Below are positions 532 through 11,165 of a stretch of 64,000 nt of DNA, piece after piece. The DNA comes from a virus (Duplodnaviria; Caudoviricetes): IMG/VR virus record IMGVR_UViG_3300012952_003952, positions 32,001 to 96,000 of that record; one strand, given 5' to 3'. The position numbers were made by a program, and so were the translations under genes. The notes beneath the pieces were generated by a model. That model saw nothing but the letters and a program-made list of their open reading frames with translations, had not been told where the DNA came from and searched no databases. Positions within the stretch are counted from its first letter, which is position 1; every line of letters starts with the position of its first letter.

Positions 532-729
532 ATGGCTAATAACGAAATTTTAGAAAAGTGGAGAGAGCTTAAAGTCTTAGTGGAAAGTCTAGAATTAGAT
601 GTACACAAACACGCTAACGGTAATTCTTCTGCTGGTGTAAGAGCTAGAAGAGGGTTAAGACTACTAAAAGGCGAGACGGCAAGTTTGGTTAAACTTTCTT
701 TATCACACGAGAAAGAAAAGAAATCTTGA
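532..729 (+). CDS. Histone H1-like (Hc1-family N-terminal domain) nucleoid protein
   Basis: Motif LVESLELD...GNSSAGVRARRGLRLLK matches the Hc1 GN.AAG.RAR helix-turn pattern. Strong SD AAGGAG at ~519-524. Confidence 0.7.
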   Translation: MANNEILEKWRELKVLVESLELDVHKHANGNSSAGVRARRGLRLLKGETASLVKLSLSHEKEKKS

Positions 730-739
730 CTTATTCTTA

Positions 740-1108
740 GGGCCCGAAACGGCTTCGACGGGGTAGGAGAGAACGAGAGTGCAGGTGGTCACACGAAATA
801 GCGGACCTTAAACGCGGTTTCAAAACTTTAATTGCCAATAACAATTATCACTTCGAATCTGCCCGCTTAGCGGCTTAATCGGTGGGGTTGCTTAAGACCT
901 TATTACCCAATTTAAGATAGCAGGTAGAGATCCTGCGAAATAAAAAAATCAGAACGGTTTCCTGGAAACAGGCGGGGCGCAACAGGTTGATAAGCGCAGG
1001 GTTAATCAACTACCTTTTCTAATTTGTGATAGTAAATTAGACAAACCTGTGAATGACTTGACTTTGAAGCTATTGCGGACGCGGGTTCGACTCCCGCCGG
1101 GTCCACCA
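740..1108 (+). ncRNA. ssrA: tmRNA (transfer-messenger RNA), one-piece, CCA encoded
   Basis: 5' GGGCCCG (740-746) pairs with CGGGTCC-A-CCA (to 1108) with the G3:U70 alanine determinant. 5' GGCTTCGACGGG. T-arm GCGGG-TTCGACT-CCCGC. Internal tag ORF ends in LAA-stop. Confidence 0.97.
834..878 (+). other. tmRNA proteolysis-tag reading frame ANNNYHFESARLAA*
   Basis: GCC AAT AAC AAT TAT CAC TTC GAA TCT GCC CGC TTA GCG GCT TAA after an AT-rich resume context (TTAATT). C-terminal LAA is the canonical ClpXP degron. Confidence 0.9.
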
Positions 1109-1127
1109 TTTATAAAATGTGAAAATA

Positions 1128-1136
1128 TGCTACAAT
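1128..1136 (+). promoter_or_regulatory. Possible extended -10 promoter (TGcTACAAT) giving a leaderless mRNA
   Basis: TG-n-TACAAT ends 6 nt before the ATG at 1143; no SD in between. Confidence 0.35.
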
Positions 1137-1142
1137 AGAATT

Positions 1143-1865
1143 ATGATTCCAAACCTTCCTAGAAAACAAGTGCAGCTTTTAAGCTTTTTGTTATTTGCAG
1201 CTGGAGCGCTTGTTATTATTGCCGGCGGGTGGCAGAACGAAGCTGCCCGGTCTGTAGGGATAACGCTGATGGCGGGATCTATATGGTTTATCATGATGGC
1301 TGAGTCTGTTCTTCTTGGGAAGGTCCAGACAGAAATGACTCGTGCGCTAGAATCATTTAGAAAGAAGCAAGAAGTTGAAATTCAAGACCTCCTCTATTTT
1401 CTTAGGCAATCTCGAATAGCAGCGTCACCACTCGAATCTATAGACGGAGCCAAAAAACTGTGTAGCACTATCCATTATCCGGCGATGGTTTTAACAATAA
1501 GCCATCAAATCATTAAAGCTAATGAAAAAATGCACAATCTCGTCGGGTGGGGTGAGGGCGAATTAAATGGAAAACCAGCCCATTTCATTAACGATCTAGT
1601 TGTAATGTCGAAGATTGGTGAGCGTTGCGCAATGCCTGAGCATGTAGACAAAAAAGCTATGATAACTCAATATGTTTACGTACACAGATCTGGAAAAAAA
1701 ATATTCGGCCAGATGGATGCAGCAAAAATTGGTGATGACGGATACTTTGTCGTGTTCCACCCTTCGAAAGACTGTGTTATTTCTTATGATGAAATTAGAA
1801 AAATGTCAATGCAAAAAGAAAACGACACTTATGATTCTGCCATAGCGGAATTTAAAAAATTATGA
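1143..1865 (+). CDS. Membrane-anchored PAS-domain protein without an output domain
   Basis: Two N-terminal hydrophobic helices, a coiled linker, then a PAS pattern (PAMVLT..HQIIKANEKMHNLVGW...ELNGK...YVHRSGKKIF). The ORF track starts at GTG 1119; ATG 1143 is preferred. Confidence 0.75.
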   Translation: MIPNLPRKQVQLLSFLLFAAGALVIIAGGWQNEAARSVGITLMAGSIWFIMMAESVLLGKVQTEMTRALESFRKKQEVEIQDLLYFLRQSRIAASPLESIDGAKKLCSTIHYPAMVLTISHQIIKANEKMHNLVGWGEGELNGKPAHFINDLVVMSKIGERCAMPEHVDKKAMITQYVYVHRSGKKIFGQMDAAKIGDDGYFVVFHPSKDCVISYDEIRKMSMQKENDTYDSAIAEFKKL

Positions 1866-1868
1866 TAG

Positions 1869-2120
1869 ATGGAAGACTATAATAAAGAAGACCGAATTAT
1901 GATAGCCGCTGTAGCTTCTGCAGTGGCTAGGGCTATACTCTATATTGGTTTATGTATTACTTTAGGCATATTACTTTCTAAGTGTTCAGTTAACTCTGAG
2001 ACCATTGTTCAGTGTGAAGAATCATGTGGGACAGATGGTATAAAAGAAGTTACTTCTTGGAGTTGTAAGTGTGGAGACAAAGAAGCAATGTCTGAGTCTC
2101 CTTGGGTATTGCCCAGGTAG
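1869..2120 (+). CDS. Small membrane protein with a Cys-rich C-terminal domain
   Basis: One long hydrophobic helix followed by a CEESC...CKC cysteine cluster. Confidence 0.6.
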   Translation: MEDYNKEDRIMIAAVASAVARAILYIGLCITLGILLSKCSVNSETIVQCEESCGTDGIKEVTSWSCKCGDKEAMSESPWVLPR

Positions 2121-2250
2121 CCAATAATTTATCTTTCTTATATTTAAACATAGAAAAGTGCATAATTAAGGGTGGAATGTGGCCTCTCGAACAAATAATC
2201 TCTTCGGAAGAGAGACTAAAAAAGAAAAAAAGAAAAAGAAGGATGTGACT

Positions 2251-3354
2251 ATGCCAATAGATCCAAAAGAAGAAAACCAAGAAGAACAAGTAGACGACAC
2301 CTATATCAATGCTCCAGATGCTGGAGATGATTTTGATTTTGTCATGGCTTATGATGATGATCCAGCTGAAGCTGATGAAAGACTGCTTCCTGATAACTCT
2401 GTTAGATCTGCTATATCTTGCGGGTTTATTGGAGTAGGCGGTGGCGGTGGAAAGCTAGCAAAAGCTTTCTTAGATCTTGGGTTCAATAAAACTATTTTAG
2501 TTAACACTACTCAGAAAGATCAACCTGGCGGATTAGACCCTTCTCATTTTGTCTTGGTTCCAGGCGCAGACGGAGTAGGAAAAGATATTACTCTTGGTAA
2601 AAAAGTCCTTCAAGAAAATAGTGCTTTTGTTGAAGACGCAGTTCGAACTAGACTTGGACAAGTAGACTGGCTTTTTGTCTGCGCTGGAGGAGGGGGAGGT
2701 ACCGGAAGTGCTAGCCATGAGCTGCACGGATCTCTTAGCCGTTATCTGTCTTCTATAGAGTCTAGCGGAAAGGTTGTCTACATAGTAACAAAGCCCACTG
2801 CACAAGAGATGCTAAATCCAACTATATCTAAAAATTACAAGTCTCTTATCGAAGATGTTAAAACCGTTCCCCACATTATTATTGATAATGAAAAACAGCT
2901 ACAGTTGTTAAGAGGAAAGGTCGGAATGATGAACATGTTCCCTGCAGCTAATAAGAATTTTGCCAAACTATTGTCGCAAGTTTTAAAATTAGCTGATGAA
3001 CACACTGACATCCAAACTTTTGACACTAAAGATCTAGAAAAATGTCTAAGTACCGATGGTAGAATAGTAGTCGGCAGTACTGTAGTAAGAGACGTTACTA
3101 GAAATGATCTTGGATCTCTAGTATATCAAGGTTGCTTAAGATCATCTCCATGTCCAAAACCTACAGGAAACGCAGCTACCGGAACGCTACTGCTAGTTGT
3201 AGATGGTCACATGGCTTCTGATCCGGATGTAAGTAGAAGACTAGAGTCTGCTTTTTCTTATGTTGGAGGAAGAGCTAGCACGTTGTTCTCTGGGGTCTAT
3301 GTGAAAGAGGGAATTCCAGGCCTCATTGCAATAACAATACTTGGTGGACTATAA
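2251..3354 (+). CDS. Tubulin/FtsZ-family GTPase (PhuZ/TubZ-like) with an acidic N-terminal extension
   Basis: GFIGVGGGGGK (T1), GADGVGKD, tubulin signature GGGGGTGS, IIIDNE, and T7-loop-like TFDTKD. The ORF track starts at GTG 2179; ATG 2251 has SD AAGGA 7 nt upstream. Confidence 0.9.
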   Translation: MPIDPKEENQEEQVDDTYINAPDAGDDFDFVMAYDDDPAEADERLLPDNSVRSAISCGFIGVGGGGGKLAKAFLDLGFNKTILVNTTQKDQPGGLDPSHFVLVPGADGVGKDITLGKKVLQENSAFVEDAVRTRLGQVDWLFVCAGGGGGTGSASHELHGSLSRYLSSIESSGKVVYIVTKPTAQEMLNPTISKNYKSLIEDVKTVPHIIIDNEKQLQLLRGKVGMMNMFPAANKNFAKLLSQVLKLADEHTDIQTFDTKDLEKCLSTDGRIVVGSTVVRDVTRNDLGSLVYQGCLRSSPCPKPTGNAATGTLLLVVDGHMASDPDVSRRLESAFSYVGGRASTLFSGVYVKEGIPGLIAITILGGL

Positions 3355-3355
3355 A

Positions 3356-3547
3356 ATGAAGATAAGATTTATAGAAGCTTTAAAAGCTAAAATGTCTACT
3401 AATGTTATAGAAGTCGAGTTAGAAGAAGAAGAGGAAATCACTGACGAAATCATAAAATCTTTGTATGAATTAAAAAATGCTTATGATTTGCCTACTGAAG
3501 AAGTAGAATATGCGGTGGCTTCTAGAAATATAAAGACTCACAATTGA
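3356..3547 (+). CDS. Small acidic hypothetical protein directly downstream of the tubulin
   Basis: ATG 1 nt after the tubulin stop; acidic run EVELEEEEEITDE. The ORF track starts at 3341. Confidence 0.55.
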   Translation: MKIRFIEALKAKMSTNVIEVELEEEEEITDEIIKSLYELKNAYDLPTEEVEYAVASRNIKTHN

Positions 3548-3789
3548 TTTAAAATAGAAAGATTTTTTAGTTTTTGAAATATAGATTTTTCTATTTGGCA
3601 GATTCTCATTCTTGTCACGCTAAAAATATCTCCAATCTCTTGGAGAGTATGCGGACCTTTTTTAGACGCTATTATGGTACAATTTTGATTCTCTTTAGAC
3701 GCTATCCAGTATTTGCAGGATGACTTCTTACAATTAAAAATGTGTCTTTCACATTCTTCAAAGCATATTTTATTTTTATTTTCTGGCAT
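3538..3789 (-). CDS. Stand-alone sigma-70 region-4 HTH protein with a Cys-rich N-terminus
   Basis: HTLQEIGDIFSVTRMRICQIEKSIFQKLK matches the sigma-4 TL.EIG...VTRERIRQIE..AL.KL consensus. Five Cys precede it. SD-like AGGGA upstream on the minus strand. Confidence 0.85.
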   Translation of the reverse strand: MPENKNKICFEECERHIFNCKKSSCKYWIASKENQNCTIIASKKGPHTLQEIGDIFSVTRMRICQIEKSIFQKLKNLSILNQL

Positions 3790-5725: not shown

Positions 5726-5774
5726 TTTTAAAGACATGTATCATATTTACTTAACAGATTAGTAAGGTAATAAA

Positions 5775-8700
5775 ATGGCATCCGATTTTAGAGCAGAAAG
5801 AACAAGAACAAACAGTATTATTTCTAGCGGCAGTTCACCAACGACTAAGCCGTTATTTTCGCTTTATCACTCCACTTCTGCGACTAACTTTACTGGTGGC
5901 ACAGCCACTGGACTTTTTGATGGTGTTGGTACTGATGTATACTCATTCTTTTCAGGATCTAAAGACCATAAAAATGTTTTAGGTTCTCGCGGGGTGACGC
6001 TATTTGGTGGAGATGTTGTAATATCTGGTACTCTTTACGCAGATAAACAAGTAATAGAAATAGACGAAACAGTAACTGGAAGCCTTACCGTTTCTGGCTC
6101 TCTTGTAGTTTCTCAAAGTATAGAAGCCGGCCAACACTTACACATAAATTCTTCTGGTGGCCCTTTTGGATACGCAAACTTTGGATCGGTAGCTTTGGCT
6201 TCTGGTTATGGTTTTAGAGCTGCTGGTGGTACGATGCAGTTCAAGAATACTGGCGGCGCATGGACCGCTATAGGAACTGGTACCGGAGGAAGCTCACTTT
6301 GGATGACAGGATCTGCCGGAGCAGTGACCGGTGGTGGAACATTACTCAACTGGGTATCTACTACTGGATCGATAGCAGTATCAGGATCTTATTTAGACCT
6401 TCACGGCTATATTCGAGAAATCGGTTACCAGACTACTAACTATCATAGGTTTAATAATAACGGGCAGAGCTTTAACGCTGAGGGTGTGAGTATGATGGAA
6501 CTATCATCACTCAGCGGTCAGAAGTTGATTCTGATAAATGCAGCTAACGCGAATGTTGATTTTCGTGTAGATTCTGCAAATAGAGACAAAGCCTTTTATG
6601 TCGATGCTGATTTAGACAGAGTTTCTATACTTTCTGGAGCTTTGAATACTGATGGAGAAGGCATTGATATTGCGTTCTTCGTATCTGGATCTAAGGGTGG
6701 AAAAGACGGAAAAGATCGAGGAGTCTCTCTCTTCGGCGGCGACTTAGTAACTTCAGGAACAGTTATTTCTAGAGGTGCTAACGGCGGCGCAATTACTGGT
6801 TCTATAACCAGAACTTCCGATGGTAAATCTTATATTGCCGCCGGCGCAAATATTACTATTACTTCTGGATCAGATGGACAGATATTAATTGCAGGCGCAG
6901 CAGGTGCAGCTCCTGAATGGACAGATGGCGGTGGCTTGACCGGTCCTCTTTACCCAGCCGGAAACAGTGGTGTACAAAATGTCGTTATTGGCGGTACAGG
7001 TTTAGCTAGCGCAGACATATTGCTTGGTAGCGCTGGGTCTGCAGAGTTTAACAAACAAGCTGGCGCCGGACAAGAATTTGTAGTTAGTACAGTTGGTAGA
7101 GGTTCTGCCATTCACGTTAAATCTTCGGATAATACCGTAGATATTCTATCCGGATCTGGGGTCACTGGTGGAGATGGCGCAGATGTTGCATTCTTCGTAT
7201 CTGGCTCTGTTTCAGGTAAAGACGGAAAAGATCGAGGAGTAGCAGTATTTGCAGGAGATCTATTAACTTCAGGAGTGCTCTACATAGAGGGAAGCAGAGA
7301 CTACCAAGGCGCGACATCAGCTGCCATAGTTTTAAATGACACACTTCACAGTCGAATAGTCTGGAACTCAGAATCTGATTCTAATACTCCAGATGCACAA
7401 ATCTGGGAGCAGAACGGAGATCTATATTTAAGCGCTTCAGATGAAATTGAATTGCAAAGCAACACTGCAACTTCCATCACCGGTTATGGTGATGTAAGGT
7501 ATGTAGCATTTTCCAGAACAGGCGGCACTCAAAGAAAAGCTATGTTCAATCCTTCGCGAAACGACGTTGACTTTGAGATTGCAAATTCTACAAACTATTA
7601 CGCCTTTAAGGTGGACGCTGCGGAAAACTGGATAAGCATTGATAAATTATCTTCTGAACCAATACCAGGTGTAGATGTTAATTTCTTCGTCTCTGGCTCT
7701 ACAACTGGAAAAGACGGAGCTGAACGTTCAGTATCTGTATTTGGCGGAGATTTAGTAACATCTGGTGTACTCTACGTAGAAGGAAATAGAGATTATCAAG
7801 GTGCAACATCTGCAGCTATTGTTTTAAACAGTGCTTTGCACAGTCGAATAGTCTGGAATTCAGAATCTGACTCCAACACTCCAGATGCACAAATTTGGGA
7901 ACAGGGCGGAAGTTTATACTTAAGCTCTTCAGATAATCTTTGGCTAGAGGCTAAAGATGCAATTCTGTTTGATGGCAATGGCGACAAGCGTTTCTTATCA
8001 ATGGACTCAGTCGGCAGTCAGTGGGGAAGTTATTTCAACATACAAAACAATGATCTAGATTTTAGAATTGGCAATACGACGCACGACAGAGCCTTTACTG
8101 TAGACGCTGCAGAAGGAACTGTAAATATTGATAGGAAAATTTCTGACGCGATCCCAGGCTCTGACGTTAACTTCTTCGTATCTGGATCGACCAAGGCAAG
8201 AGGTACTTCGACTAGGGGGGTTTCAGTATTCGGCGGAGACCTAATAATATCAGGTACTCTTTATGCTGATCGTCAAGTAATTGAGGTAGATGAAGCAGTA
8301 ACAGGAAGCCTCAGTGTATCTGGCTCTCTAGTAGTTTCTCAAAGCGCAACAGTCAACGATACAGTCACAGCATTGCTTGGTTTCTCTGGTTCACTTACTA
8401 GATTAACAGATGCAAGATCTTATATTGCCGCTGGAAGCAACATTACAGTTGCTTCTTCTTCAAATGGCCAAATTGTTATCAGCTCTACAGCTGGTGGAAC
8501 AATGTCTAGCTTCGGCCTTGTTGGAGACACTGGTAGTGCTCAATCCATTACAAATGGAAACAATTTAACGATTGCCGGTGGCACCGGTCTAATAACCACT
8601 GCTAGCGCCACGGACACCCTAACTATAGACTTAGATTACAATGGTACAGACAACTTTATAGATGCAGCTCCGAACTTAGAGGGCACCTCAATTAACGCTT

Positions 8701-11165
8701 CTGATAGTATAGTCTATCACGACCATACCGATGATAACGTTAAGAAAGGCCGGGTATCAGACTTACCATTCGCTTCTTCAGATACTACTTACACAGCTGG
8801 AGACGGCCTAGACCTTTCAGGAACTACATTTAGTACTGACTTAAAGAATGATGGCGGTCTTAAGATTGACTCTACTGAATTAGCGATAGACAATAACATT
8901 GTCGCCACCGTTTCTGGAACTTCATTCACCGGTGGAGTTAGAATAAGTTCTACTAATAATATTGCACCTCCAGTGCTTGGACTATTTGTTCAAGGAACAA
9001 TATCTGGATCTATTCACGAAACGCATGAAGGAAAATCTTACTTAGTTGCCGGTACCAACGTAACAATAGCTTCGTCCTCCAACGGTCAAGTAACAATTAG
9101 CTCTACCGCTGGTGGAACGGTTGATGGATCGGGAGTAGCAAATAGGGTCGCATATTGGTCTGACTCAGATACATTGACATCAGATGCTGACTTAACATTC
9201 GACGGAACCGACTTAGGTGTCGGTAACAAGATATTCCACGTAGGCGACGACAACACATTCATTTATTTTAACGATGATGACATAAATATCTCAGTCGGTG
9301 GCGTCAACATGGTTGACTTTACTGAGAACGCTGGATCGCAAGACGAAATAACTTTTAATGAAGCTGGTGCAGATCTTGACTTTAGAGTTGAATCAGATGA
9401 TAATCCCCACATGTTCTTTATCAATGCAAACGATAATAGAATCAGCATCGGTACTCAAGGAAATACTCCTGAAACTGTCGTTCATATTAAAGACACCTCT
9501 CCTGAAGTTAGAATACAGAGAGCCTTAAACGGACAGGACTCTACAATTAGTTTTGCTGGAGCAGCTGGAGTTCGTGGAAGCATGACCGGCCTCCAAGGCG
9601 GAACCAACGATATAGTTTTTGACACTTTTAACAGCACTACGCTGGAAGAAATAGCTAGATTTGGTGGCTTATATACCGGTGGTCCTTCCGGAAGACAAGT
9701 TATATTATTGTCCGGATCTACTATGCATGCTGGAGCAATGCAGCCTAGAGAAGCTTCTGATATCGCGTTCTTCGTGTCCGGTGCAATTAGCTCTAGAGGT
9801 TCTTCTACTTTAGGGGCCTCAGTATTTGGTGGCGATAATGTAATATCAGGAAGCTTAACAGTTCTTAACTCCGGAGTTGGTGGTGGTACTATATCTGGTT
9901 CTATTCACGAGACCGAAGATGGAATATCATATCTAATCGCAGGCACCAACGTCAGTATAGTATCTGCCTCAAATGGCCAGGTAACAATTTCTAGCACTGC
10001 CGGTGGTAGCGAATGGACGGATGGTGGATCATTCTTATACCCAACCGACAACTCTGGTGTAGAACATGTAGTTATCGGTGGAAACTCTTTAGTCAATGCT
10101 GATATCTTACTTGGAAGTGCAGGCGGCGCTGAATTTAACAAACAGCGCGCTGCAGCTTCTGATTTTACTGTTTCTACTCAAGATGACCAATACGCTCTCG
10201 TAGTTGATGGCGGCACTAATCAAGTCTGCATACACGATCCTGGGAATGCTACCCCTGGCAACTATGCAGGAGGGGAAGCTTCGTTCTATGTCTCAGGCGC
10301 AATAGGACTTTCTGGAGCTGGAGCTGGAAAAGCTATTTTTGGCGGTGACGCAGTCATAAGTGGTACTCTCCACATAAAAGGAAATTATAACTCAAGTGGA
10401 CCAAGCTCCGACGAAACCAGCTTAAGGCTTGATCATGGAATTGCTTTTGACGACGGAGACTCTTGGATATATGAGAACGGAGATGACTTATGGCTAGTAG
10501 GAAAAGTCGATACTAACTTAAGCGCTTCAGATGATATATTCATTGGATCTGGCGATACAACTTGTCTTACTACTGGTGGAAGCTTCTTAGCTAAGTCTGG
10601 TGGTGAATTAACAAATGGGTTCTTTATAACTGGTACCGACACTTGGATGCACGTTTCAGGAGCAATAGGAGGTCATTGTACATCTGGCTCAGCTGGAATT
10701 GTAAAGAGCACCGTTGCTTTCGGTGGCGATGTTGTAATATCTGGATCAATGAGAGCTAAGCAAATAGAAAATTATCGTGGCTCCTATAATAATGGTTCTA
10801 ATGCAGATCCAGATTACATCCCTCTTGGGCCCAGTGCCTCAGAGTCTTCAGTTGCTGGATATCTTCAGCATTCAGTTATGCCTTTTGCAGGAAGATTGGT
10901 GAAACTGAGTTGGAGACCAGAAAATGCACAACAAAATGCAGTTACTGCAACTGTTTTCAAGGGCGTGGACGGAAATGCCACCCCTGGTATCGGTGGAGAA
11001 TCTGTAACAGTAGCTGGTAAAGCTGGATTCAATACACACTCTTTCCACTTCCAGCAAGCTGTACATTTTAATGAAGGTGATATTTTTGCGATTGAAGTTA
11101 ATCCAGGATCTACGCCTGGAACAGTTACCTTTACAGCTACGTTTGAAATGGACATGTTCATCTAA
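5775..11165 (+). CDS. Giant G/S/T-rich modular virion fibre/adhesin-like protein (1796 aa)
   Basis: Eight FFVSG...F[GA]GD.V.SG modules and four SGSI....G.SY..AG.N.TI.S..NGQ modules. Fibre-like motifs YTAGDGLDLSGTTFS and GSGVANRVAYWSD. C-terminal beta-sandwich-like head. Confidence 0.75.
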   Translation: MASDFRAERTRTNSIISSGSSPTTKPLFSLYHSTSATNFTGGTATGLFDGVGTDVYSFFSGSKDHKNVLGSRGVTLFGGDVVISGTLYADKQVIEIDETVTGSLTVSGSLVVSQSIEAGQHLHINSSGGPFGYANFGSVALASGYGFRAAGGTMQFKNTGGAWTAIGTGTGGSSLWMTGSAGAVTGGGTLLNWVSTTGSIAVSGSYLDLHGYIREIGYQTTNYHRFNNNGQSFNAEGVSMMELSSLSGQKLILINAANANVDFRVDSANRDKAFYVDADLDRVSILSGALNTDGEGIDIAFFVSGSKGGKDGKDRGVSLFGGDLVTSGTVISRGANGGAITGSITRTSDGKSYIAAGANITITSGSDGQILIAGAAGAAPEWTDGGGLTGPLYPAGNSGVQNVVIGGTGLASADILLGSAGSAEFNKQAGAGQEFVVSTVGRGSAIHVKSSDNTVDILSGSGVTGGDGADVAFFVSGSVSGKDGKDRGVAVFAGDLLTSGVLYIEGSRDYQGATSAAIVLNDTLHSRIVWNSESDSNTPDAQIWEQNGDLYLSASDEIELQSNTATSITGYGDVRYVAFSRTGGTQRKAMFNPSRNDVDFEIANSTNYYAFKVDAAENWISIDKLSSEPIPGVDVNFFVSGSTTGKDGAERSVSVFGGDLVTSGVLYVEGNRDYQGATSAAIVLNSALHSRIVWNSESDSNTPDAQIWEQGGSLYLSSSDNLWLEAKDAILFDGNGDKRFLSMDSVGSQWGSYFNIQNNDLDFRIGNTTHDRAFTVDAAEGTVNIDRKISDAIPGSDVNFFVSGSTKARGTSTRGVSVFGGDLIISGTLYADRQVIEVDEAVTGSLSVSGSLVVSQSATVNDTVTALLGFSGSLTRLTDARSYIAAGSNITVASSSNGQIVISSTAGGTMSSFGLVGDTGSAQSITNGNNLTIAGGTGLITTASATDTLTIDLDYNGTDNFIDAAPNLEGTSINASDSIVYHDHTDDNVKKGRVSDLPFASSDTTYTAGDGLDLSGTTFSTDLKNDGGLKIDSTELAIDNNIVATVSGTSFTGGVRISSTNNIAPPVLGLFVQGTISGSIHETHEGKSYLVAGTNVTIASSSNGQVTISSTAGGTVDGSGVANRVAYWSDSDTLTSDADLTFDGTDLGVGNKIFHVGDDNTFIYFNDDDINISVGGVNMVDFTENAGSQDEITFNEAGADLDFRVESDDNPHMFFINANDNRISIGTQGNTPETVVHIKDTSPEVRIQRALNGQDSTISFAGAAGVRGSMTGLQGGTNDIVFDTFNSTTLEEIARFGGLYTGGPSGRQVILLSGSTMHAGAMQPREASDIAFFVSGAISSRGSSTLGASVFGGDNVISGSLTVLNSGVGGGTISGSIHETEDGISYLIAGTNVSIVSASNGQVTISSTAGGSEWTDGGSFLYPTDNSGVEHVVIGGNSLVNADILLGSAGGAEFNKQRAAASDFTVSTQDDQYALVVDGGTNQVCIHDPGNATPGNYAGGEASFYVSGAIGLSGAGAGKAIFGGDAVISGTLHIKGNYNSSGPSSDETSLRLDHGIAFDDGDSWIYENGDDLWLVGKVDTNLSASDDIFIGSGDTTCLTTGGSFLAKSGGELTNGFFITGTDTWMHVSGAIGGHCTSGSAGIVKSTVAFGGDVVISGSMRAKQIENYRGSYNNGSNADPDYIPLGPSASESSVAGYLQHSVMPFAGRLVKLSWRPENAQQNAVTATVFKGVDGNATPGIGGESVTVAGKAGFNTHSFHFQQAVHFNEGDIFAIEVNPGSTPGTVTFTATFEMDMFI
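7297..7900 (+). repeat. Internal direct duplication in the fibre gene (7297-7408 vs 7789-7900, 492-bp period)
   Basis: Both copies encode RDYQGATSAAIVLN..LHSRIVWNSESDSNTPDAQIWE; mismatches are mostly synonymous. A 23-bp repeat AAAGACGGAAAAGATCGAGGAGT also occurs at 6702 and 7218. Confidence 0.9.

What the first reader, a model, noticed from the sequence alone, without database searches (positions are those of the whole stretch)
2251..3354. Phage tubulin with an acidic N-terminal arm and no C-terminal tail
GTP-binding motifs (GGGGGTGS; T7-like TFDTKD) are intact. The protein ends abruptly at ITILGGL, but ~50 acidic residues (EENQEEQVDD...DDFDFVMAYDDD) precede the GTPase domain. Established: PhuZ, TubZ and FtsZ use C-terminal tails for filament contacts or partner binding. 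Inference: the tail function has moved to the N-terminus, possibly a new tubulin subfamily. It could form a spindle (nucleus-forming phage) or a type III partition system with the downstream acidic ORF and convergent HTH gene.
Basis: partly seen in the sequence, partly recalled or inferred. Interest (0 to 1): 0.6.

Follow-up and report, generated by a model that had tools for sequence, protein, structure and literature searches.

The report
Tail-first tubulin of marine jumbo phages
An uncultured marine T4-like giant phage encodes an intact tubulin/FtsZ-type filament protein from a large virus-only family; its flexible docking tail sits at the front of the protein instead of the back, which suggests that phages without a "phage nucleus" also build a cytoskeleton.

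Summary
Window 2179-3354 (+) encodes a complete tubulin/FtsZ-superfamily GTPase with intact T1, T4 and T7 motifs. It ends at the last core strand (ITILGGL) and has an acidic N-terminal arm. One correction: translation most likely starts at GTG 2179, not ATG 2251. That adds a conserved N-terminal peptide and a polybasic stretch.

The arm has three parts: the N-peptide, a linker of variable length, and an acidic-aromatic motif (DDFDFVMAYDDDP) fixed 33-36 residues before the T1 loop. It is under strong purifying selection and is predicted to be disordered.

The protein is not FtsZ, PhuZ or a canonical TubZ. It belongs to a virus-only clade with over 1000 marine sequences and none in cultured phages. 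By fold it is closest to CetZ and TubZ.

The phage is T4-like and about 290 kb. Complete relatives have no chimallin, and there is no TubR or tubC. The neighbouring acidic ORF and HTH gene are not conserved partners. A promoter-like motif shared with virion genes precedes the gene.

Best reading: a late-expressed, filament-forming phage cytoskeletal GTPase with its interaction tail moved to the N-terminus. Its cellular job is unknown.

This scan has already found the same family on other DNA. My tests agree with those reports and add to them.

The parts
2140..2147 (+). Promoter-like motif ATATTTAA, about 40 nt upstream of the GTG start
   Evidence: In the genome, 15 of 34 occurrences of the motif lie within 70 nt upstream of plus-strand ORFs, against 7.5% expected. 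These ORFs include the scaffold, tail sheath and fibre genes. The motif precedes the tubulin gene in 26 of 60 distinct loci, against 1.8% of random windows. Its role as a late promoter is inferred.
2179..3354 (+). Tubulin/FtsZ-superfamily GTPase gene, 391 aa, GTG start, stop included
2179..2250 (+). N-terminal peptide MASRTNNLFGR followed by a polybasic run (aa 1-24, net charge +6)
   Evidence: A peptide of the form M-[AGP]-S-[ST] is found in 33 of 61 distinct family members. The first 11 codons show 6 synonymous and 0 non-synonymous differences against L002. pLDDT is below 50.
2251..2400 (+).
   Evidence: pLDDT is 36-67, so it is predicted disordered in the monomer.
2326..2364 (+). Acidic-aromatic short motif DDFDFVMAYDDDP (aa 50-62)
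   Evidence: Nearly invariant in 138 sequences. It lies a fixed 33-36 residues before the T1 loop. A short helix is predicted at residues 53-57. Distant relatives carry a hydrophobic-D-hydrophobic-P-[D/E]-hydrophobic motif at the same spacing.
2416..2913 (+). GTP-binding domain (aa 80-245) with the T1 loop (aa 85-92) and T4 signature (aa 169-177)
   Evidence: Pfam PF00091 matches aa 83-242. pLDDT is above 90. Invariant glycines are listed.
3016..3033 (+). T7 (synergy) loop TFDTKD with both catalytic-type Asp residues (D282, D285)
   Evidence: It aligns to FtsZ N-L-D-F-A-D. D282 is invariant in the 50-sequence alignment and D285 is over 90% conserved.
3046..3351 (+). C-terminal (activation) domain, ending at the last beta strand with no tail
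   Evidence: The structural alignment runs to residue 391 against CetZ, TubZ and FtsZ cores. The distance from T1 to the end is a constant 306-311 aa in 61 family members.

Best explanation
The gene encodes a GTP-hydrolysing, filament-forming protein of the tubulin/FtsZ superfamily. It belongs to a separate, virus-only clade. The globular core is complete: a GTPase domain, a T7 loop that would complete the active site of the next subunit, and an activation domain. The C-terminal tail that FtsZ, TubZ and PhuZ use for partner or subunit contacts is missing. In its place is an N-terminal arm with three parts: a conserved end peptide with a polybasic run, a disordered linker of variable length, and an acidic-aromatic motif held 33-36 residues from the nucleotide-binding loop. 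I infer that the acidic motif docks on a neighbouring subunit or a partner, as the acidic-hydrophobic C-terminal tails of PhuZ and TubZ do. I infer that the end peptide tethers the filament to a partner, membrane or DNA. The gene carries a promoter-like motif shared with head and tail genes. In one lineage it sits between the capsid and neck genes. It is therefore probably made late and helps to organise late infection (DNA, procapsids or assembly sites) in a T4-like jumbo phage that has no phage nucleus. What is shown: the fold, the motifs, the arm's layout and its selection, the viral distribution and the absence of chimallin, TubR and tubC. What is inferred: polymerisation, the role of the arm, the timing and the cellular job.
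For: Fold and motifs:
- The AF2 core has pLDDT above 90.
- VIA Z scores are 32.9 for CetZ2, 32.4 for TubZ-Bc and about 29 for FtsZ, over residues 75-391.
- The family profile hits RepX at 4e-38, CetZ2 at 4e-35 and M. jannaschii FtsZ at 3e-34.
- T1, T4 and T7 are conserved.

Arm:
- The end peptide is conserved, the linker plus peptide spans 35-127 aa, and the acidic motif keeps a fixed spacing.
- Selection: 26 synonymous against 1 non-synonymous codon change over the arm, and 6 against 0 over the first 11 codons.
- It stays disordered in two AF2 runs, with a short helix in the motif.
- A motif at the same spacing occurs in relatives of 25-33% identity.
- Reference TubZ, PhuZ and CetZ proteins end in acidic-hydrophobic peptides.

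Distribution:
- Over 1000 homologues, and 110 IMG/VR loci confirmed by tblastn.
- Atlas neighbour clusters are 87-100% viral.
- Only 4 short MAG contigs among 185,579 species' genomes.

Clade: separate, with 100% support, and outside FtsZ.

Timing: shared promoter-like motif, and a position between the major capsid and adaptor genes in synteny group C.
Against: - No filament, GTPase activity, expression time or binding partner has been observed.
- The Pfam Tubulin score is below the gathering cut-off for this member (26.5 against 33 bits).
- The gene is accessory. A 318-kb, 93%-complete relative (capsid protein 67% identical) lacks it.
- Gene neighbours differ among four synteny groups, so context says little about function.
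- AF2 did not dock the arm anywhere. The tools could not fold multimers, so the role of the arm is untested.
- The late-promoter reading rests on motif enrichment alone.
Confidence: 0.62

Rival explanations
1. It acts on the host divisome. The phage tubulin uses its N-terminal motif to imitate the FtsZ C-terminal peptide. That lets it dock on, or sequester, host FtsZ partners such as FtsA-, ZipA- or SepF-type anchors. The result would be either phage filaments borrowing the host's membrane tethers or a block on cell division.
For: Distant relatives carry motifs such as IDIPDL, VDLPEI and FDIPDV at the arm position. E. coli FtsZ ends in ...LDIPAFLRKQAD. The core is FtsZ-like.
Against: In this family the motif is DDFDFVMAY, without the proline. 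FtsZ of the Flavobacteriales MAGs that co-bin with such contigs ends differently, in ...DDNPFLHDNVD. Matches between short motifs are easily due to chance. Late-type promoter and virion-gene context fit a take-over factor poorly. Identity to FtsZ is only about 20%, so co-polymerisation is unlikely.
Confidence: 0.13
2. It is a TubZ-type (type III) DNA-partition motor. It would segregate the phage genome during a carrier or pseudolysogenic state, with a DNA-binding adaptor encoded elsewhere or nearby (the Hc1-like protein or the sigma region 4 protein).
For: The best profile hit in the PDB is RepX/TubZ. The TubZ Z scores are 31-32. 12 of 50 aligned relatives match Pfam TubZ-like_C. A small Hc1-like DNA-binding gene lies upstream in synteny group A.
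Against: There is no TubR-type winged-helix gene directly upstream, unlike in reference TubZ loci. There are no iterated repeats. The Hc1 and HTH neighbours occur in one synteny group only. The HTH is sigma-70 region 4. The phage is T4-like, with a virion-type promoter motif upstream of the gene. The protein lacks the TubZ C-terminal helix and tail.
Confidence: 0.1
3. It is a PhuZ-like spindle that centres a phage nucleus.
For: It is a jumbo phage carrying a tubulin homologue, and PhuZ models appear among the viral structure hits.
Against: PhiKZ chimallin and Pfam PF25677 find nothing in this record or in complete relatives G004 and G007. The capsid and sheath are T4-type. The PhuZ C-domain family PF22334, which phiKZ PhuZ matches at 1.7e-37, was not among this protein's Pfam matches. 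PhuZ forms its own 100%-supported clade. Foldseek E-values for PhuZ are about 1e-11 to 1e-13, against 1e-19 for FtsZ and CetZ.
Confidence: 0.04
4. It is a non-polymerising GTPase or a decaying relic with no cytoskeletal role.
For: The gene is accessory in the clade, and this member scores below the Pfam gathering cut-off.
Against: Identity is 58-92% across lineages whose capsid proteins are about 65% identical. The T7 loop and all nucleotide-binding loops are conserved. Synonymous changes heavily outnumber non-synonymous ones.
Confidence: 0.05

Closest known systems
TubZ / RepX (type III partition GTPases of Bacillus plasmids pBtoxis and pXO1, and of Clostridium phage c-st; PDB 4ei7, 2xka, 3v3t)
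   Same: It has the same two-domain tubulin/FtsZ fold (Z 31-32, rmsd 2.3-2.5 over about 305 residues). TubZ/RepX is the best profile hit in the PDB. Both are carried by mobile elements. Both rely on a flexible acidic-hydrophobic peptide outside the core (the abstract of PMC5322520, listed, concerns the TubZ tail).
   Different: There is no C-terminal helix or tail, no upstream TubR and no tubC repeats. The Pfam TubZ C-domain families did not match this protein. Identity is 15-18%. The peptide is N-terminal.
CetZ (archaeal cell-shape tubulin homologues; PDB 4b45, 4b46, 3zid)
   Same: It gives the highest structural score (Z 32.9, 23% identity) and a strong profile hit (4e-35).
   Different: CetZ is archaeal and chromosomal and acts in cell shape. 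The tree does not join the phage clade to the one CetZ row with any support. CetZ keeps a C-terminal extension that ends in an acidic-hydrophobic peptide.
FtsZ (bacterial and archaeal division GTPase; TIGR00065)
   Same: The core fold and the T1, T4 and T7 motifs are shared. The overall logic of a conserved end peptide, a variable disordered linker and a core is also the same.
   Different: It scores 32.9 bits against the 295.2-bit cut-off. No FtsZ_C match was found. The tail is at the opposite end. It is separated from FtsZ by a 100%-supported branch. It is found in viruses only.
PhuZ (tubulin of nucleus-forming Chimalliviridae; PDB 3r4v as recalled from memory, Pfam PF22334)
   Same: Both are phage-encoded tubulin homologues of jumbo phages, and PhuZ polymerises through an acidic tail.
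   Different: It is much more distant in structure and sequence. The PhuZ tail is C-terminal. There is no chimallin partner. The host phage is T4-like.

Membership tests
Tubulin/FtsZ superfamily | Glycine-rich T4 signature (GGGTG[ST]G-like) and T1 nucleotide loop | tested here: met
   AGGGGGTGS at aa 169-177 and GVGGGGGK at aa 85-92. The glycines are invariant in 50 and in 138 sequences.
Tubulin/FtsZ superfamily | T7 loop with acidic residues that complete the neighbour's GTPase site | tested here: met
   TFDTKD aligns to FtsZ NLDFAD. D282 is invariant and D285 is over 90% conserved.
Tubulin/FtsZ superfamily | Two-domain fold (GTPase domain, core helix H7, activation domain) | tested here: met
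   AF2 pLDDT is above 90 over residues 70-391. Z scores of 27-33 were obtained against CetZ, TubZ and FtsZ chains.
Tubulin/FtsZ superfamily | Pfam PF00091 above the gathering score | tested here: inconclusive
   This protein scores 26.5 bits against a cut-off of 33 (E = 9e-6). All 50 aligned relatives match at E <= 0.01, the best at 2e-17.
FtsZ | NCBIfam TIGR00065 equivalog score | tested here: not met
   32.9 bits against a cut-off of 295.2.
FtsZ | C-terminal linker plus a conserved C-terminal peptide | tested here: not met
   The protein ends at the last core strand in all relatives.
FtsZ | Groups with cellular FtsZ in a tree | tested here: not met
   The three clean FtsZ rows are split from everything else by a 100%-supported branch. 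This was a quick LG+G4 tree with few references.
TubZ (type III partition) | TubR winged-helix gene directly upstream and iterated tubC repeats | tested here: not met
   Upstream genes differ among the four synteny groups. No iterated repeats were found. Reference loci do show the small upstream gene.
TubZ (type III partition) | TubZ-type C-terminal domain families (PF22340, PF21493, PF22453) and a C-terminal tail | tested here: not met
   None of them matches this protein at E <= 1. PF22453 matches 12 of 50 aligned relatives. There is no tail.
TubZ (type III partition) | Falls inside the TubZ clade | tested here: inconclusive
   The phage clade sits in an unresolved group with TubZ-like, CetZ and PhuZ rows.
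PhuZ | Phage tubulin C-terminal domain PF22334 | tested here: not met
   PhiKZ PhuZ matches it at 1.7e-37. This protein does not.
PhuZ | Co-occurrence with chimallin (nuclear shell) | tested here: not met
   PF25677 and phiKZ gp54 find nothing in G000, G004, G005, G006 or G007. The Pfam model is specific to Phikzvirus, so a very divergent shell protein cannot be excluded.
CetZ | Archaeal host and grouping with CetZ | tested here: inconclusive
   CetZ gives the best structural Z, but only one CetZ row was available for the tree and it sat on a long branch. All family members are viral.

The most novel reading that the evidence does not exclude
The N-terminal arm may be a portable docking module that plugs a phage-made filament into host machinery. 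The ancestral arm motif (IDIPDL- or VDLPEI-type in distant relatives) would imitate the FtsZ C-terminal peptide (LDIPAFL in E. coli). Phage filaments would then ride on, or strip away, the host's FtsZ membrane anchors. This would be a viral tubulin that hijacks the divisome's adaptor proteins, in a T4-like phage with no nucleus.
Probability: 0.12. Interest if true: 0.85.

Novelty: new variant of a known kind. Interest (0 to 1): 0.6.

Why it matters
Phage tubulins are known from two settings. PhuZ forms spindles in nucleus-forming phiKZ-like phages, and TubZ acts in partition systems of plasmids and of a clostridial prophage. A 2026 review of jumbo phages names only PhuZ.

This family is different in four ways:
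- It is abundant in the ocean, with over 1000 sequences.
- It occurs in T4-like jumbo phages that lack a shell protein.
- It is absent from the 50,697 deposited phage records searched, which include the cultured phages.
- It has the tail-to-core order of every characterised relative reversed.

It gives a natural test of whether the terminal peptide and linker of tubulin-family filaments can work from either end. It also suggests that cytoskeleton-assisted infection is not limited to nucleus-forming phages.

Tried and rejected
- PHROGs gave no family for the protein.
- tblastn of the protein and of distant relative P0164 against 50,697 phage records found nothing. P0218 hit only c-st TubZ and two unannotated gut contigs.
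It found no IMG/VR loci for P0164 or P0218. The genomic setting of the distant relatives was therefore not examined.
- I tested whether the N-terminal peptide is the capsid-targeting tag reported earlier in this genome (MKITKRQLRRIIKE-type). It is not.
- The T4 late promoter TATAAATA is not used here. It occurs 7 times on the + strand and never upstream of a gene.
- A second AF2 run with 138 family sequences did not order the arm. The tool returns no coordinates, so docking sites could not be read.
- The tools could not fold multimers.
- One 'FtsZ' reference row (the Hyphomonadaceae MAG) was a bad ORF pick with a 4.4 branch and should be ignored.
- No archaeal FtsZ, eukaryotic tubulin or pBtoxis TubZ sequences were available for the tree.

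Full report
**What is there**

Window 2179-3354 (+) is one open frame. From the ATG at 2251 it gives 367 residues. From the GTG at 2179 it gives 391. The window is bases 32001-96000 of a 241,978-bp IMG/VR virus record.

The protein is a weak but clear tubulin/FtsZ relative:
- Pfam PF00091 scores E = 9e-6, at 26.5 bits against a cut-off of 33.
- The best solved relatives by sequence are FtsZ at about 1e-8.
- There is no PHROG family.
- NCBIfam ftsZ scores 32.9 bits against a cut-off of 295.

HMMER aligns the T1 loop, the T4 signature and the T7 loop (TFDTKD against FtsZ NLDFAD).

**Start codon and arm**

Twenty close homologues share an almost invariant stretch, D-D-x-Y-I-N ... D-D-F-D-F-V-x-A-Y-D-D-x-P-A ... 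R-L-L-P-x-N, ahead of the GTPase core. They end at GGL.

Most long forms begin with M-[A/G/P]-S-[S/T] followed by basic residues. Against its closest syntenic relative (L002), the first 11 codons from GTG 2179 differ at 6 synonymous and 0 non-synonymous positions. Both genes use GTG. The IMG gene call is also 391 aa. I therefore place the start at 2179.

Figures from 61 distinct family proteins:
- The acidic motif lies 33-36 residues before the T1 loop.
- The N-peptide plus linker spans 35-127 residues.
- The distance from T1 to the C-terminus is 306-311 residues.

For this protein, net charges are +6 (aa 1-24), -16 (aa 25-74) and +3 (core).

The arm is under purifying selection. Over 51 codons there are 26 synonymous and 1 non-synonymous differences against L003, and 17-26 synonymous and 4-10 non-synonymous against six other loci.

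**Structure**

AF2 with 50 sequences gives pLDDT above 90 for residues 70-391 and 44-62 for residues 1-60. With 138 family sequences the arm stays below 50 up to residue 45, with a short helix at 53-57.

| Comparison | Result |
|---|---|
| Foldseek, PDB: FtsZ, CetZ, TubZ | all about 1e-19 to 1e-18 |
| VIA-align: CetZ2 | Z 32.9 |
| VIA-align: TubZ-Bc | Z 32.4 |
| VIA-align: TubZ-Bt | Z 31.3 |
| VIA-align: FtsZ | Z about 29, over residues 75-391 |
| Foldseek, viral models: two uncultured-phage 'FtsZ' entries | best matches |
| Foldseek, viral models: PhuZ | about 1e-11 to 1e-13 |
| Family profile: RepX | 4e-38 |
| Family profile: CetZ2 | 4e-35 |
| Family profile: M. jannaschii FtsZ | 3e-34 |

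**Family and distribution**

- Over 1000 proteins at 73-92% identity among those listed, mostly from marine metagenomes.
- All collapse to one 50%-identity cluster. There are two full-length relatives at 43% identity, then many at 25-33%.
- 110 IMG/VR loci were confirmed by tblastn, at 58-91% identity among the 80 kept.
- Nearest Atlas clusters are 87-100% viral.
- No deposited phage record holds the protein.
- In 185,579 prokaryote species' genomes it occurs only on four short MAG contigs, three of them binned as Flavobacteriales.

In a quick tree the family plus its two 43% relatives form a 100%-supported clade on a long stem. It lies outside FtsZ and in an unresolved group with TubZ-like, CetZ and PhuZ rows.

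The distant relatives match Pfam Tubulin_2 (29 of 50) and TubZ-like_C (12 of 50). This protein matches neither.

Many distant relatives carry a motif of the form hydrophobic-D-hydrophobic-P-[D/E]-hydrophobic (IDIPDL, VDLPEI, FDIPDV and others), most often 31-35 residues before their T1 loop and often at the very N-terminus. The N-terminal motif and its spacing are therefore old features of a wide viral clade.

**The phage**

The capsid protein is gp23-like and present in two copies, as is the sheath. A baseplate wedge homologue is present. A close relative (G004) is a complete 293-kb genome with terminal repeats.

PhiKZ chimallin and Pfam PF25677 find nothing in this record or in G004, G005, G006 or G007.

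The tubulin is present once in each of G004, G005 and G007. It is absent from G008 (318 kb, 93% complete, capsid protein 67% identical) and from eight other, less complete records that carry a related capsid gene. It is therefore widespread but accessory.

**Context**

The 81 loci fall into at least four synteny groups.

| Group | Context |
|---|---|
| A (this window) | two small ORFs, an Hc1-like gene, tmRNA, tubulin, a convergent sigma-70 region 4 gene, PIN-PhoH, a fibre gene |
| C | the gene sits between the major capsid and head-tail adaptor genes, upstream of the sheath gene |
| B and D | other neighbours |

The downstream acidic ORF (3341-3547) was detected in 3 of 81 loci. The PAS-like and small membrane genes upstream were detected in 2. 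No iterated repeats lie nearby. Reference TubZ loci have a small gene directly upstream; nothing equivalent is conserved here.

**Expression signal**

ATATTTAA lies at 2140-2147, about 40 nt before the GTG. In the genome, 15 of 34 copies of ATATTTA[T/A] lie within 70 nt upstream of plus-strand ORFs, against 7.5% expected. These ORFs include the scaffold, sheath and fibre genes.

Across loci the motif precedes the tubulin in 26 of 60 distinct upstream regions. The comparison figures are 1.8% of random windows and 7.3% of other ORFs. It also precedes the scaffold gene (8 of 15) and the adaptor gene (7 of 21). I read it as a late-type promoter. This is an inference.

**Interpretation**

The core has everything a polymerising tubulin-family GTPase needs. 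Its conservation matches or exceeds that of the capsid protein across the clade.

The arm mirrors the FtsZ design (core, variable linker, conserved peptide) at the other end of the chain. Reference TubZ, PhuZ and CetZ proteins end in acidic-hydrophobic peptides. The abstract of PMC5322520 (listed) says that TubZ dynamics need the flexible C-terminal tail. From my own knowledge (Kraemer et al. 2012, not read here), PhuZ polymerises through its acidic tail. The arm's acidic-aromatic motif is a plausible functional counterpart.

The nucleus-spindle reading and the TubZRC-cassette reading both fail their defining tests. A role at the host divisome remains possible but is weakly supported.

**Earlier reports of this scan**

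Earlier reports of this scan describe the same family on other DNA, with the same conclusions. My tests are independent and agree with them. They add:
- the evidence for the start codon;
- the three-part layout of the arm and its fixed spacing;
- the shared motif in distant relatives;
- the promoter statistics;
- the chimallin and accessory-gene checks with positive controls.

Noticed in passing
window 740-1108 (+): A phage-encoded tmRNA with tag peptide ANNNYHFESARLAA. The tmRNA 3' end (…GGTTCGA.TCCC…CCACCA) lies directly upstream of the tubulin gene in many loci of synteny groups A and D.
   Followed up: partly
window 532-729 (+): A 65-aa protein matches the chlamydial histone H1-like family Hc1 (PF07432, E = 2.7e-7). 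It is conserved upstream of the tubulin gene in synteny group A only.
   Followed up: partly
window 3538-3789 (-): A stand-alone 83-aa protein with a Cys-rich N-terminal half and a sigma-70 region 4 helix-turn-helix (PF04545, E = 1.7e-9). It is convergent with the tubulin gene and present in 25 of 81 loci. An earlier report on this genome describes a sigma factor split inside domain 4 elsewhere in the genome.
   Followed up: partly
window 1119-2120 (+): A 248-aa membrane protein with a weak PAS match and an 83-aa Cys-rich membrane protein are inserted between the tmRNA and the tubulin gene. They occur only in this phage and its closest relative (L002).
   Followed up: no
G000 genome-wide, e.g. 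window 2140-2147 and 5743-5750: The motif ATATTTA[T/A/C] is enriched 24-62 nt upstream of virion genes (scaffold, sheath, fibre, a 1592-aa gene). The T4 late promoter TATAAATA is not enriched. This is probably the clade's own late promoter.
   Followed up: partly
loci L001-L081 (tree): The tubulin tree does not follow the synteny groups. The window (group A) is 92% identical to a group B gene (L003), while other group A genes fall in a different subclade. This suggests exchange or frequent relocation of the gene within the phage clade.
   Followed up: no
proteins P0148-P0276: Distant viral relatives carry an N-terminal motif such as IDIPDL, VDLPEI or FDIPDV, often followed by LE[DE][FY], 31-35 residues before the T1 loop. 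It resembles the FtsZ C-terminal peptide LDIPAFL. This is a lead only.
   Followed up: partly
L087-L090 (genome contigs): The only hits in prokaryote genome assemblies are short contigs in MAGs, three of four binned as Flavobacteriales. The capsid protein is closest to Flavobacterium phage 'immuto' and Microcystis phage Mel-JY01. This is a weak hint that the host is a member of the Bacteroidota.
   Followed up: no
window 5775-11165 and 11397-48000 (+): A 1796-aa repeat-rich fibre-like protein with no family match is followed by a long run of same-strand genes. These include a Nol-type carbamoyltransferase and an aminotransferase (a sugar-modification cluster), and the run ends before the baseplate genes.
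   Followed up: no
G007:C1:230535-231662: The tubulin match in this complete relative spans one in-frame TAA within the variable N-terminal part. This probably means a shorter arm with a later start there rather than a broken gene.
   Followed up: no
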